A stretch of 64,000 nt of DNA from Eledone cirrhosa (lineage: Eukaryota). The notes beneath the pieces are model-generated. The model was not told where the DNA came from. It was given only the letters and a program-made list of their open reading frames with translations, and searched no databases. How positions within the stretch are numbered: position 1 is the first letter of the stretch; each line of letters begins with the position of its first letter. Location: the NCBI GenBank assembly GCA_964016885.1, contig OZ024741.1, positions 150,474,001-150,538,000 of the forward strand, read 5' to 3'. The translations under genes and the position numbers were made by a program. Shown piece after piece: positions 39,351-55,959 of the stretch.

Positions 39351-39563
39351 ATATGTGTGTATATATATATATATATATATATATATATATATATAAAAAA
39401 ATTAGAATTGTAGCTCTGAAATAGCAATATATATATGGATGTAAATATAATGTATTTTGCAATACACTTTATGCTTAATTAAAAGCATTTTGAAGACCGT
39501 AAGCTATTGTTTTAAAGTAGTGACAAATTCACTCACTTCGATCTCAGCAAACAGGAGGAGATA

Positions 39564-39607
39564 AGCCGACATGACATGTTTCGCTTTTGTTGAAGCTTAT
39601 CAAGGCC
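39564..39607 (-). ncRNA. Hammerhead, U3:A8 core
   Basis: Reverse complement of 39918-39961. Confidence 0.78.
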
Positions 39608-39917
39608 AACTACCCCGCCCGTCTGCTGAGATCAATGATGTTATATTCTTATAGAAATCTAGTAAATAATCAGGAGCTGATTATGCAGAGCGGTTGTTGG
39701 TCAGGCAGAAATTAAAAATTAGAATTGTAGCTCTGAAATAGCAATATATATATGGATGTAAATATAATGTATTTTGCAATACACTTTATGCTTAATTAAA
39801 AGCATTTTGAAGACCGTAAGCTATTGTTTTAAAGTAGTGACAAATTCACTCACTTCGATCTCAGCAAACAGGAGAAGAATATAACATCATTGATCTCAGC
39901 AGACGGGCGGGGTAGTT

Positions 39918-39961
39918 GGCCTTGATAAGCTTCAACAAAAGCGAAACATGTCATGTCGGCT
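39918..39961 (+). ncRNA. Hammerhead, U3:A8 core
   Basis: ggcc-TTGATAA-gctt(caacaa)aagc-GAAA-catgtcat-GTC-ggct. Confidence 0.8.
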
Positions 39962-40234
39962 TATCTCCTCCTGTTTGCTGAGATCGAAGTGAGTGAATTT
40001 GTCACTACTTTAAAACAATAGCTTACGGTCTTCAAAATGCTTTTAATTAAGCATAAAGTGTATTGCAAAATACATTATATTTACATCCATATATATATTG
40101 CTATTTCAGAGCTACAATTCTAATTTTTAATTTCTGCCTGACCAACAACCGCTCTGAATAATCAGCTCCTGATTATTTACTAGATTTCTATAAGAATATA
40201 ACATCATTGATCTCAGCAGACGGGCGGGGTAGTT

Positions 40235-40278
40235 GGCCTTGATAAGCTTCAACAAAAGCGAAACATGTCATGTCGGCT
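40235..40278 (+). ncRNA. Hammerhead, U3:A8 core (next unit, +317)
   Basis: Identical to 39918-39961. Confidence 0.8.
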
Positions 40279-40642
40279 TATCTCCTCCTGTTTGCTGAGA
40301 TCGAAGTGAGTGAATTTGTCACTACTTTAAAACAATAGCTTACGGTCTTCAAAATGCTTTTAATTAAGCATAAAGTGTATTACAAAATACATTATATTTA
40401 CATCCATATATATATATATATATATATATGCATAATTCTACACTAATATTTCACCCTTTAACGACCGCCACACTATCTTTCAAAATTTATTTAGCGTCTA
40501 TAATAACGGCCCCTTTTTGTTTTAATGTATCCTTGTTAACTTATATCACTTGTGATTTAAATTTCTCACTGCCGTTAGCGAAATTACACTATTAAGACTA
40601 TGCGAAGGTATGTCAATATCTTAACACCAAATATTATATTAT

Positions 40643-40985
40643 GGTGAATTGGCAGTATCGGTAGAGGGTTGGACGCCATGCTTTGATGCATAGAGTTACG
40701 GCCCTTGCCATTCTGAGTTCAAATCCCGCCTAGGTTAACTTTGCCTTTCATCCTTACGGGGTCGATAAAATAAAGTACCAGTAATACACGGGGATAATTG
40801 CTGGCCTTGTGCCAAAAGTAGAAACAATTATATTATGTTTTATCTGATGAAAGCACACAAAAACTTTGTGTCCTTGAAAAACGTATTATAAAATAAATAC
40901 AGTATTATAAATGTATTAATATATAGGCGGTGGATTGGCAGTATCGGTAGAGGGTCGGACGCCATGCTTTGACGCATAGAGTTTT
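40643..40985 (+). mobile_element. SINE (40643-40830) plus isolated SINE head (40925-40985)
   Basis: ttggcagtatcggtagagg, gagttcaaatcc. Confidence 0.85.
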
Positions 40986-41879
40986 TTCTTTTCCTTTTTA
41001 CAAATATACCTAACTGTACCAAGGATTTCGCACATTTTCCAATATACATATATATATATATATATATATATATGAATGTATGTATAGTATATTTGGCAAT
41101 ATACCGTATGTTTAATTATACATACATTCATGTATACATCGCTATTTCAGAGCACCAATCCGAATATATATATATACATATATATATATCCGATTACGCA
41201 ATGTTTTACGGACAGACAATACTTCCTCAGACGGCGAGTTACAAACAAATATAGGAATTACATAATGTTGGAGACATCGGATGGGGAGTTGTCTCAAATG
41301 CTATGTTTGGTGTTGTTCCATCATATAAAGTTAGAAGTATCAACAAACCATTGTTTGTCAATATCAGCTTTTAGTTAGTGGTGGATTAAAAAAATACTGG
41401 TGAGTGGTTGGTGGATGTTTATTTCTTTTGATTGAAGTTTGACTTTGATTTTTGCATATGTCGTAAAGTTTCGTTCTATCCGCTGTAGCTACTTGTCAGC
41501 TCTCATATATTTTATTGCTCATGAGAATAGTTCTTATCTGTTTAAGTTTTTTTATCAGCAATCTCTTTCACGGTTCATTTAGTGACTGTTCTTTAATAAA
41601 GATGTTCTTTTTCTTATATAGGTTAAAGGGGCATTATATAATTAGATATAGTTTTTTGTATGTATGTTGGCCTGTATGGGGATTTCACAAGGTGGATGCA
41701 ATGATATGTAGTAAAGAGCAACAATAGCAACAAAAATATGGAGGTAAATAGAGGAATAAATAAATTGATATATTGCACAGAGCAATAGAACGGCCTTGGA
41801 AATTTACACTTTAAACCATATTACGCCAGGAATCAGAAGAAGAGAAGAGTTACGGCAGTCAACTAGGTAAAGAGGAAAG

Positions 41880-53430: not shown

Positions 53431-53565
53431 TTCAATAGTTTACGCGTAGGATCTATTACGAATATATATAAATATGTACATTCCCCCCACACACATGCAT
53501 ACACACACAGACACACATACATATATACATAGTTTAGGATAGTTTCCGTACAACTTCATTTAGAC

Positions 53566-53604
53566 CGAGCTGAGGATCCGAATAAGGTGAAACATTTGTT
53601 CTCA
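53566..53604 (+). ncRNA. Hammerhead of the 25385-26089 family
   Basis: cgag-CTGAGGA-tccgaataaggt-GAAA-cattt-GTT-ctc. Confidence 0.62.
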
Positions 53605-54189
53605 GTATGGTGAACTAACTGTGGTCGAACTACTTCTACTAAACTCGTCCCATGGACTGAGTGCTCTACTACTACGGATGTAACCCACCTCGCTCGTCCA
53701 CACGATCTGGAACTTATGTTCAGTTACCGCCGTGGACTTGAATTTTCTTTCTTCAAGCTGCTCGTACACTCTTCGGTTTGTTGTTTCCAGTTTTTTTCGT
53801 TTTTTTGGGCTGTTTTTCTCTTTTCTCTATTTTTTTCGTGAAGTTAATAAGACTTTATGATAATGCATGCTCTTGTTTGTTTGTTTCTTGTATTCTAGAT
53901 ATATACTTCCATGCTTACGCGGACTCCCACTCTGGCCGTCGGATTACCCTTGGTTTACACTTGGTTTACCCTTTGACTACTCTTGGATATCTCTCGGATT
54001 ACCTACGAACTCCAACTTTTGGATCTTTTGAACAGCAATCGTGTCATCAATCTTCCATGATCCATCACCCACTTTGCTCTACCTCTTGTATCTATCTCCT
54101 TGCCTTTACCTCAACCGACATCCAACCATGCGCAACCACTCCTGCCTAAAATTGTACCCCCTCCCCCACTTCTGCATTAAGCCCACACT

Positions 54190-54852
54190 TTGCCTGGAAT
54201 TTGCTAATGACATGGTGTTTCTTAACTCGTGAAGGTGATCCAACTTGCACCGATAGGCTTGTGCAGCACAACGAGAATATAAATCAAGGCTGTGAAAACT
54301 GAGACACTCGTTCTCTCAAGGAAACCTGCGCAGTGCAATCTACGTGTAAATGGAGTTCCACTGAAGCAGGTTGAGAAGTTCAAGTATCTTAGAGCCATGT
54401 TCATGAGTGGTGGAGGGCAGAATGCTGAATTAAGTTCTAGAATTGCATTCAGTAATCAAAATAAGGGAAATAGACGCAAAAGCCAATCTCGCTATCTTCA
54501 ATTCGGTAATCGTGCCAATCCTTATCTATGGTTTGGATCTTAGGTAATGACCGAAAGAATATGATCGCTAATACAAGCGGCCAAAATGGGGTTTCTCGGA
54601 AGGGTCTTTGTAGTAAGGTTACTCGATAGAGTGCGTAGCTCAGAGATCAGAGAGTCACTACAGGTAGAGCTACTACTTCTGTGAATTGAAAAATCACAGC
54701 TCCGGAACTATGGGCAAGTTATTAGAATGTCTCAGGGAAGAATCGCTGGACGGAGCTTATGGGTAAAACCAACCGATAGGAGACCCAGGGGTAGACCTCG
54801 AGCTAGAAGGTTGGATAAATTCCACGAGTTTGGGATTAGTTGGAGACGGTTG
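54190..54852 (+). mobile_element. RTE-clade LINE 3' RT fragment
   Basis: LEFANDMVFL, KTETLVLSRKP..LKQVEKFKYL; homologous to ~19330-19850. Confidence 0.82.
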
Positions 54853-55306
54853 CTTATATATATATATATTCGATTGATTATTGATTAGGCGAACCCGCTG
54901 ATGAAGCCACACGCGCCGATTGTGCATTGTTGCATAATAAATGTAGACAGTAGATTGCTGCATTAAGTGGCGCCGACTCGAGTATGGGTATAGATTGAAG
55001 GTACCCATTTACGCGTGTTGTGTTAAAGCGAATAACTATATGTCTACTCTGGGTGTTTACTTAACATTACCTATTGAGTACGCTGAGATGCAACCGGTAC
55101 TAGCAGCGAAACCCATGCTAGTCTCGTCAACCTATTATATATATATATATATATATATATATATATATATATATATGAATGTATATATAGTGTATTTTGC
55201 AATACACTGTATGCTTAATTAAAAGCATTTCGAAGACCTTACGCTATTGTTTTAGAGTAGTGACAGTCTCAGTTACTTTACATTTTCAGCAAAAAAGGGG
55301 AGATAA

Positions 55307-55351
55307 AACTAACAGAGCTCTGTTTCGTACTGATTGGTACTTATCAAAGCC
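55307..55351 (-). ncRNA. Hammerhead, U3:A8 core
   Basis: ggct-TTGATAA-gtac(caatca)gtac-GAAA-cagagctct-GTT-agtt. Confidence 0.75.
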
Positions 55352-55640
55352 AAGTACTCCACCTGTCTGCTGAAAATCATGAATGTTTGATTCTTATAGA
55401 ATTCTAGTAGTAATCAGGAACTGATTATAGAGAGCGGTTGCCGGTCAGGCAGATATTGAAAATTAGAATTGGTGCTCTGAAATAGCGATATATATATGAA
55501 TGTATATATAGTTTATTTTGCAATAATAATTTTCAATATCTGCCTGACCGGCAACCGCTCTGTATAATCAGTTCTTGATTATTACTAGAATTCTATAAGA
55601 TTCAAAAATTCATGATTTTCAGCAAACAGGTGGAGTACTT

Positions 55641-55685
55641 GGCTTTGATAAGTACCAATCAGTACGAAACAGAGCTCTGTCAGCT
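55641..55685 (+). ncRNA. Hammerhead, U3:A8 core
   Basis: ggct-TTGATAA-gtac(caatca)gtac-GAAA-cagagctct-GTC-agct. Confidence 0.82.
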
Positions 55686-55959
55686 TTATCCCCCCTTGTT
55701 TGCTGAAAATTTAAAGTAAGTGAGACTGTCACTACTCTAAAACAATAGCGTAAGGTCTTCGAAATGCTTTTAATTAAGCATACAGTGTATTGCAAAATAC
55801 ACTGTATATACATTCATATATATATCGCTATTTCAGAGCACCAATTCTAATTTTATATATATATATATATATATATATATATATATATCGACTTTCGTCA
55901 AATCGGACCGAGGAAAAAATGTTTCCGTTGGTCTTTCCAGTTGCTAGTACTATCTATCG

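What the first reader, a model, noticed from the sequence alone, without database searches (positions are those of the whole stretch)
39396..55853. Sister retrozyme-like subfamilies (317 vs ~321 bp) show covariation across the hammerhead
Seen: 39396-40410 and 55171-55853 align over the whole unit but differ in stem II (gctt/aagc vs gtac/gtac), stem III (catg.catg vs cagag/ctctg) and stem I (ggcc/ggct vs ggct/agct). Pairing, TTGATAA, GAAA and GTC are all retained. A further partial relative lies at ~41070-41160. This is internal comparative evidence that the U3:A8 ribozyme fold is maintained by selection.
Basis: seen in the sequence. Interest (0 to 1): 0.72.

Follow-up and report, generated by a model that had tools for sequence, protein, structure and literature searches.

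The report
Hammerhead retrozyme lineage with compensated stems
These are two copies of a small, non-coding repeat that is scattered in thousands of copies through an animal genome and carries a predicted self-cutting RNA fold; its subfamilies kept every base pair of that fold while changing the letters, which is good evidence for a known kind of mobile element (a retrozyme) rather than something new.

Summary
39397-40415 (unit 317 bp) and 55167-55854 (unit 321 bp) are 79% identical sister subfamilies with a type I hammerhead (core UUGAUAA); five stem pairs differ on both sides, none is broken. Corrections: the 41064-41165 piece has no hammerhead; one B copy has lost GUC; two U3:A8 copies cannot test the 3:8 pair. 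Genome sampling supplies that test: an older homologous subfamily has canonical C3:G8, and the 41064 piece belongs to it. On a tree of 130 units, 0 of 13 propagated changes break a pair against 40 of 66 single-locus changes (p 3e-5): selection acts while the element copies itself, and copies decay afterwards. Loop 3 stays palindromic at positions that can pair only between two ribozymes, which suggests double-hammerhead cleavage. Insertions sit in (TA)n as two inverted arms with a ~30-nt tail at one end (46 of 58), the Penelope footprint. No partner element was identified; cleavage and expression are untested. Retrozymes, natural U3:A8 and dimer cleavage are all published, and earlier notes of this scan report a similar ~320-bp U3:A8 family elsewhere in this genome. 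New member of a known kind.

The parts
39397..39878 (-). Subfamily A insertion, left (inverted) arm, 1.5 units, 5'-truncated at the inversion point
   Evidence: 39397-39650 = reverse complement of 39875-40128 (100%); 39714-39878 repeats 39397-39561
39875..40415 (+). Subfamily A insertion, right arm, 1.7 units of 317 bp, ending at the internal AT tract
   Evidence: 39875-40098 repeats 40192-40415 (99.6%)
39397..39426 (-). ~30-nt tail present at this end only (Penelope-type asymmetric end)
   Evidence: left end corresponds to unit position 40128, right end to 40098
39918..39961 (+). Type I hammerhead A1: U3 at 39922, A8 at 39927, stem II 39929-39942, GAAA 39943-39946, C17 39957 (predicted cut after it)
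   Evidence: (Rfam HH9 31.1 bits, E 2.3e-6, below gathering 52)
40235..40278 (+). Type I hammerhead A2, identical to A1; C17 at 40274
39564..39607 (-). Type I hammerhead in the inverted arm of A, identical to A1; C17 at 39568
39348..39396 (.). (TA)n target tract left of A; a second tract follows 40415
41064..41165 (.). Two back-to-back 3' ends (41064-41118 minus, 41115-41165 plus with tail) of the C3:G8 subfamily G; no hammerhead left
55167..55525 (-). Subfamily B insertion, left (inverted) arm, 1.1 units of 321 bp, ending at the internal AT tract
55521..55854 (+). Subfamily B insertion, right arm, with the ~30-nt tail (about 55826-55854)
55641..55685 (+). Type I hammerhead B: U3 at 55645, stem II 55652-55665, GAAA 55666-55669, C17 55681; stem III a perfect 12-nt palindrome
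   Evidence: (HH9 16.9 bits, E 0.079)
55307..55351 (-). Decayed hammerhead in the inverted arm of B (U17 instead of C17; C-to-U in stem I)
55855..55888 (.). (TA)n target tract right of B; a second tract lies at 55136-55176

Best explanation
The two loci are insertions of sister subfamilies of a ~320-bp non-coding repeat whose hammerhead stems changed only in pair-preserving ways, and the repeat is most likely a non-autonomous retrozyme copied by a Penelope-like element. Shown: the unit, the fold, the covariation, the copy numbers, the (TA)n target and the two-armed, one-tailed insertion form. Inferred: (1) tandem units are transcribed; (2) the hammerhead cuts after GUC, likely best as a double hammerhead in which the palindromic stem III of two units pair with each other; (3) the resulting monomer or multimer RNA, linear or circularised, is reverse-transcribed by a borrowed Penelope RT/GIY-YIG protein from two fixed internal start points about 140 and 170 nt downstream of the cut site, into both strands of a (TA)n tract; (4) only variants that keep the fold go on to found subfamilies, while inserted copies decay. 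The C3:G8 versus U3:A8 difference is one compensated step between the older subfamily G and the A/B clade; its direction is not rooted by an outgroup.
For: Unconstrained RNAalifold on 34 hand-picked copies returns the active type I fold. 8 of 15 named pairs change on both sides, 98.6% of cells paired, slid controls 22-48%. 3:8 column pair: UA 28, CG 6, no mismatch; subfamily G has 385 strict matches, control 0 and is 74-80% identical over the unit. Tree test: 0 of 13 changes on branches leading to 3 or more loci break a pair, 40 of 66 single-locus changes do; Fisher p 3.1e-5, 1.8e-4 without 3:8 events. Genome counts of xTGANxAG N10-14 CGAAAC: U3:A8 24386, C3:A8 454, U3:G8 339, C3:G8 13169 by subtraction from 38348. 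Dimer-only pair (columns 157:160) paired in 28 of 28 cells, GC 15, AU 11, GU 2; double-hammerhead fold 8-15 kcal/mol below two single active folds in 5 of 9 tandem dimers. Tail at exactly one end in 46 of 58 two-armed insertions; 170 of 213 non-tandem ends followed by TA repeats; matches the PLE form in PMC8557442 section 6. A PLE with one 1257-codon open frame (RT and GIY-YIG hits) exists in G000 (L116). No ORF over 46 codons in the unit.
Against: No cleavage, RNA or circle was shown. The single active fold is 5.3 (A, B) and 7.9 (G) kcal/mol above the predicted minimum, which sequesters the core. The double fold was worse than two single folds in 4 of 9 dimers (by 1.5-43 kcal/mol; these include truncated, junction-near or decayed first copies). 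Rfam HH9 scores are below gathering. In one search the number of pairs with double changes did not beat the letter shuffle (105 of 500 as high). Hairpins outside the hammerhead covary too (8 of 37 pairs), so covariation is not specific to catalysis. The L116-type PLE has its own, unrelated C3:G8 hammerhead and no homology to the unit; no partner was identified. Sampling was by patterns that fixed the core and some stem positions, and subfamilies recombine (L050), so event counts are approximate. L083 does not fit a strictly monomeric circular template.
Confidence: 0.8

Rival explanations
1. Same element, but each hammerhead cuts on its own as a monomer; the palindromic loop 3 is inherited and not needed.
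For: Stem III can form 4 bp with a 3-4 nt loop in A and B, longer than in newt or axolotl forms; loop 2 (CAANNA) and the stem I bulge match Rfam HH9; the ~25-bp local stem I would fold first during transcription; coral and mussel retrozymes cleave as monomers (PMC7229834, passages).
Against: The inner positions stay complementary through a two-sided change with G-U intermediates at three loci (L073, L075, L153) and through length changes 9, 12, 11 nt; the monomer's active fold is not the predicted minimum.
Confidence: 0.3
2. The repeat is only the 3' end (pLTR) of an autonomous Penelope-like element, seen as 5'-truncated copies.
For: Insertion form is that of PLEs; U3-A8 hammerheads were described in PLE pLTRs (PMC4209133); Xenopus retrozymes are homologous to pLTRs (10.64898/2026.07.22.740005).
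Against: Of 188 fetched stretches holding the unit (overlapping, not independent), 39 also had a PLE protein hit, and none ran from an ORF straight into the unit on the same strand; the two without TA in between (L050, L133) pass through an inverted arm. Arrays reach 6 identical units with no coding DNA (L064). Only nine PLE protein pieces were used as queries.
Confidence: 0.1
3. The compensatory changes come from DNA-level palindrome correction or template switching, without selection on an RNA fold.
For: Every hairpin of the unit stays paired, also outside the ribozyme; stems II and III are short palindromes.
Against: The 3:8 pair is not a helix and still covaries; G-U pairs, which DNA copying would not make, are kept or seen as intermediates (I.4 GU 22/AU 12; III.5; II.4 at one insertion); single-locus mutations are not corrected (40 of 66 break pairs).
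Confidence: 0.06
4. The host selects these loci for a function of the ribozyme.
For: Core positions differ somewhat less than non-core ones in copies not chosen by core pattern (B 5 of 324 against 67 of 1714; G 11 of 300 against 89 of 1611), though the non-core figure includes the reference copy's own mutations.
Against: Copies do lose core and stem positions, including the B arm in this window; subfamily A is very young (40 of 40 full-length best hits 100% identical over 181 nt); neighbours are transposon debris.
Confidence: 0.04

Closest known systems
Metazoan non-LTR retrozymes (Cervera and de la Pena 2020, PMC7229834: passages and section 15 read; Li et al. 2026, 10.64898/2026.07.22.740005: parts 1-3 of 5 read)
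   Same: 150-450 bp non-coding, low-GC (35%) tandem units with one type I hammerhead each; sister families in one genome (axolotl 330 and 350 bp); PLEs proposed as mobilisers; axolotl forms cleave better as dimers and make multimeric RNA.
   Different: U3:A8 core in most of the lineage with a homologous C3:G8 sister; longer palindromic stem III (9-12 nt); most copies are dispersed two-armed inverted insertions in (TA)n with one tail, a form not mentioned in the passages I searched (no 'inverted', no 'microsatellite'); RNA not shown here.
Hammerheads of Penelope-like elements, including the U3-A8 variant of Schistosoma Cercyon (Cervera and de la Pena 2014, PMC4209133: parts 1-2 of 4 read)
   Same: Type I, U3-A8 covariation, palindromic stem/loop III, families 'full of covariations', copies on opposite strands 100-700 bp apart, proposed dimer cleavage.
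   Different: Those are minimal motifs with a long helix II and an extra base before it; this one has a 4-bp stem II, a 6-nt loop 2 and a long stem I like Rfam HH9, and no linked ORF was found.
Natural U3:A8 core variants (Perreault et al. 2011, PMC3088659: passages read)
   Same: C3-G8 to U3-A8 covariation seen in nature and stated to be active in vitro.
   Different: There the examples are scattered; here both states sit in one alignable lineage with intermediates subfamilies.
EN+ Penelope-like element insertions (Craig et al. 2021, PMC8557442: passages and section 6 read)
   Same: 5' truncation, partial tandems, adjacent inverted copy, 30-40 bp tail at one end, (TA)n preference.
   Different: No RT or endonuclease is encoded by this unit.

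Membership tests
Type I hammerhead ribozyme | Core (C/U)UGAN(G/A)A, GAAA, UH with a Watson-Crick 3:8 pair | tested here: met
   UUGAUAA, GAAA, GUC in 4 of 5 window copies; 3:8 UA 28, CG 6 of 34
Type I hammerhead ribozyme | Three stems around the core, stem I open, supported by covariation | tested here: met
Type I hammerhead ribozyme | Loop 1 / loop 2 tertiary contact | tested here: inconclusive
   Loop 2 CAANNA in 119 of 130 units and a bulge like the HH9 consensus; contact itself not testable
Type I hammerhead ribozyme | Self-cleavage after position 17 | not testable with these tools
   needs a transcription assay
Rfam Hammerhead_HH9 (RF02275) | Score at or above gathering (52 bits) | tested here: not met
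   31.1 bits (A), 16.9 bits (B); it resembles HH9 but is not filed under it
Metazoan non-LTR retrozyme | 150-450 bp non-coding tandem unit, one type I hammerhead per unit, low GC | tested here: met
   periods 316-324; arrays up to 6 units; longest open frame 46 codons; GC 0.35
Metazoan non-LTR retrozyme | Many dispersed genomic copies | tested here: met
   5257 matches to the core pattern, most but not all of the listed ones from this lineage; 1225, 2310 and 2233 first-look candidates for A, B, G
Metazoan non-LTR retrozyme | Transcribed and accumulating as circular RNA | not testable with these tools
   no RNA holder listed
Non-autonomous Penelope-mobilised element | Inverted 5'-truncated arms, one-sided ~30-nt tail, microsatellite target | tested here: met
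   46 of 58 two-armed insertions with one tail, 8 none, 4 both; classification by motif is imperfect
Non-autonomous Penelope-mobilised element | Autonomous partner sharing the 3' end | tested here: inconclusive
   none found among fetched loci; search not genome-wide
Autonomous Penelope-like element | RT plus GIY-YIG ORF between pLTRs | tested here: not met
   no ORF in or attached to the unit

The most novel reading that the evidence does not exclude
This lineage is a dated, stepwise record of selection for an obligate double hammerhead: loop-3 positions that cannot pair within one ribozyme covary through G-U intermediates, so cleavage would need two units, monomers would be protected, and partly uncut multimers (not only monomeric circles) would serve as the template that a Penelope enzyme copies into both strands. 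That would tie the ribozyme's dimer requirement directly to the tandem, two-armed insertions and give natural C3:G8 and U3:A8 sisters in one backbone for a clean test.
Probability: 0.35. Interest if true: 0.55.

Novelty: new member of a known kind. Interest (0 to 1): 0.34.

Why it matters
It is comparative evidence, with a built-in neutral control, that a retrozyme needs its hammerhead fold to propagate: propagated changes never break a pair, changes after insertion usually do. It also offers a ready test set: young, near-identical A copies, natural C3:G8 and U3:A8 sisters, and Penelope-type insertion ends that address the open question of what mobilises animal retrozymes. Searches that require CUGANGA would miss most pattern hits in this genome (24386 of 38348 are U3:A8). 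None of the components is new: retrozymes, natural U3:A8, palindromic stem III and dimer cleavage are published.

Tried and rejected
Expression: no RNA holder listed; this says nothing either way. Partner search: the PLE family next to L078 (150 scored of 35410 candidates; 25 loci fetched) shares no sequence with the unit beyond AT tracts and one neighbouring insertion; apparent fusions at L050 and L133 are insertions into PLE debris through an inverted arm; L078 stays ambiguous. Whole-window Rfam scan gave mostly microsatellite-driven miRNA hits. Pfam was silent on the PLE-like pieces of the window and on the whole L116 frame, and hit only sub-ranges. Model R1 (3 sequences) only re-found the five window copies and, weakly, the 467-bp family. 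R-scape was not available. One search stopped with a naming error and was redone. Literature searches returned no description of this family; searches used a taxon guessed from base composition, which I did not verify. Lunse et al. 2017 (PMC5785218) was not held and is known to me only through PMC6765202 passages; it and unseen supplements (PMC4209133, PMC7229834, the 2026 preprint) may list such motifs. Dropped before counts: 5 of 135 units that the anchor did not parse, 2 root-state artefact events, 3 events on two-locus branches (1 breaking, 2 keeping) and 1 terminal 'restore' counted as non-breaking.
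Full report
Setting. The window is G000:C2:150474001-150538000 in a 3.0-Gb animal genome rich in microsatellites and transposon debris. The finding concerns two repeats 16 kb apart.

1. What is there. Locus A (39397-40415) is an inverted left arm (39397-39878, minus) joined to a right arm (39875-40415, plus) of 1.7 units of 317 bp; locus B (55167-55854) has the same build with a 321-bp unit. Both lie between (TA)n tracts. A and B are 79% identical. There are five hammerhead motifs: three identical ones in A and two in B. All have core UUGAUAA (U3, A8). The B copy on the minus strand has decayed (GUU triplet, AGUU in stem I). The piece at 41064-41165 is two 3' ends back to back without a ribozyme. 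Rfam HH9 aligns to the motif but below gathering (31.1 and 16.9 bits).

2. The family. The pattern TTGATAAG N10-14 CGAAAC has 5257 matches in G000 (control 123); most, not all, of the 100 listed belong to this lineage. Best hits are 100% identical for A, 97-98% for B. Fetching loci showed a graded series of subfamilies with stem II GUAC/GUAC, GCAC/GUGC, GCAU/AUGC and GCUU/AAGC. One locus (L106) revealed a homologous subfamily G with the canonical core CUGAUGA, stem II ACGC/GCGU and stem III ACAGACUGU; it has 385 strict matches (control 0), copies 92-95% alike, and 74-80% identity to the A/B clade over the unit. The 41064 piece belongs to G.

3. Covariation. On 34 copies picked by hand to span subfamilies (A2; of 135 distinct full-span units), RNAalifold without constraints returns the active type I fold. 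For the 15 named pairs 98.6% of cells pair, 8 pairs change on both sides, and sliding the partners drops pairing to 22-48%; the count of double-change pairs alone does not beat the letter shuffle (105 of 500), and related copies inflate cell counts. I therefore counted events on a tree built without the hammerhead columns (130 units): on branches leading to three or more loci 9 compensatory and 4 one-sided pair-keeping changes, none breaking; on single-locus branches 40 of 66 break a pair (p 3.1e-5; 1.8e-4 without the 3:8 events, some of which I had fetched on purpose). Caveats: the sampling patterns fixed the core, pair II.1 and, for part of G, stem I; subfamilies recombine (two types in one array at L050). 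The 3:8 pair changes once, between G and the rest (UA 28, CG 6). Genome-wide, mismatched cores are rare: U3:A8 24386 (control 532), C3:A8 454 (134), U3:G8 339 (241), C3:G8 13169 by subtraction; these are copy counts dominated by a few families, and the pattern does not count G. Copies not chosen by core pattern do carry core mutations. Inference: selection acts when the element replicates, not on the inserted copy. The distal stem I and two 3' hairpins covary as well (8 of 37 pairs).

4. Monomer or dimer. Stem III plus loop is a palindrome in every large subfamily: ACAGACUGU, ACAGAGCUCUGU, ACAAGGCCUUGU, ACAAGUCUUGU, ACAUGUCAUGU. The innermost positions enclose only 1-2 bases and cannot pair within one hairpin, yet pair in 28 of 28 cells with an AU to GC change and GU intermediates at three loci. 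The single active fold lies 5.3-7.9 kcal/mol above the predicted minimum; in tandem dimers the double-hammerhead fold is 8-15 kcal/mol below two single folds in 5 of 9 cases, including the window's A dimer, and worse in 4 of 9 that involve truncated or decayed first copies. This is one compensatory path plus energy models, so dimer cleavage is likely, not shown. Dimer cleavage with palindromic loop 3 is published for amphibian and PLE hammerheads.

5. How it moves. Insertion ends fall at two fixed places, the internal AT tract and about 30 nt beyond it, roughly 140 and 170 nt downstream of the predicted cut, not at the cut. In 46 of 58 two-armed insertions one arm has the tail and the other not; 170 of 213 non-tandem ends run into TA repeats (motif-based classification, overlapping loci not fully merged). 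This is the form described for EN+ Penelope-like elements. G000 holds an abundant PLE family with at least one long open frame carrying RT and GIY-YIG matches (L116), but its hammerhead and 3' end are unrelated to the unit, and no fetched copy of the unit continues into an ORF. The template question is open: arrays L064 and L048 share private variants in all units, as a monomeric circle or local amplification would give, whereas in L083 the 3'-most unit of both arms shares two variants that the upstream units lack, as a multimeric template (or conversion between arms) would give.

6. Comparison with what is known. It works like, and meets the testable features of, metazoan non-LTR retrozymes (PMC7229834; 10.64898/2026.07.22.740005). 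Natural U3-A8 was reported in 2011 and stated to be active in vitro (PMC3088659) and in Schistosoma PLEs with about 1300 hits (PMC4209133). Seven literature searches found no description of this family; supplements and Lunse et al. 2017 were not seen. Earlier AI notes of this scan describe a ~320-bp U3:A8 family, Penelope-type ends and a C3:G8 sister elsewhere in this genome; they are not independent support, and the sequence look-up returned nothing.

7. Verdict. Observation confirmed, interpretation partly supported. New member of a known kind; interest 0.34. The useful additions are the internal-versus-terminal branch test, the C3:G8 sister that makes the 3:8 claim testable, and the covarying dimer-only pair.

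Noticed in passing
window 1344-3702: Unrelated 467-bp two-armed tandem family with a canonical CUGAUGA hammerhead (+2037, +2504, +2971, +3438, -1677), best Rfam HH9 hits of the window; arrays of 20 or more units on C1.
   Followed up: partly
window 935-1298: Two-armed insertion of another U3:A8 family (core UUGAAAA, stem III ACCGGU, A17); it dominates the listed U3:A8 hits genome-wide.
   Followed up: partly
L120, L123, L125, L126, L127, L129, L130: Several further U3:A8 hammerhead families not alignable to the unit, most with palindromic stem III; the swap may have arisen more than once in this AT-rich genome.
   Followed up: no
L078:520-2023: A subfamily B-like left arm is fused at a 4-nt microhomology to the sense strand of a GIY-YIG PLE 3' part, with (TA)n at both outer ends: either an RT template switch between PLE and retrozyme RNA or a deletion between neighbours.
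   Followed up: partly
L083: The 3'-most units of both arms share two variants absent from upstream units, which does not fit a monomeric circular template; L013 shows a variant with period 3.
   Followed up: partly
L050:1456-2109: One tandem array holds two different subfamily types in successive units.
   Followed up: no
L116:3221-6991 (-): PLE with a 1257-codon stop-to-stop frame, RT and GIY-YIG matches, an inverted upstream copy and its own CUGAAGA hammerhead.
   Followed up: partly
L119:600-4900: A mariner-like DNA transposon (my reading of the sequence, not tested) sits in the internal TA tract of a unit, and a ~600-bp foreign segment lies within the array.
   Followed up: no
window 37500-38970, 48700-50075, 4599-5054, 28360-28935: Decayed PLE-like RT/GIY-YIG fragments by motif reading; Pfam silent. 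Locus A sits in the TA tract just downstream of the first.
   Followed up: partly
window 25518, 26018, 30296, 53570, 61993: Further hammerhead-core motifs of other repeat families.
   Followed up: no
window:39875-40191 laid on runs X1, X2: Each run, under another organism label and of unrecorded kind, holds a single low-depth contig covering the A unit end to start (347 and 383 nt); meaning unknown.
   Followed up: partly
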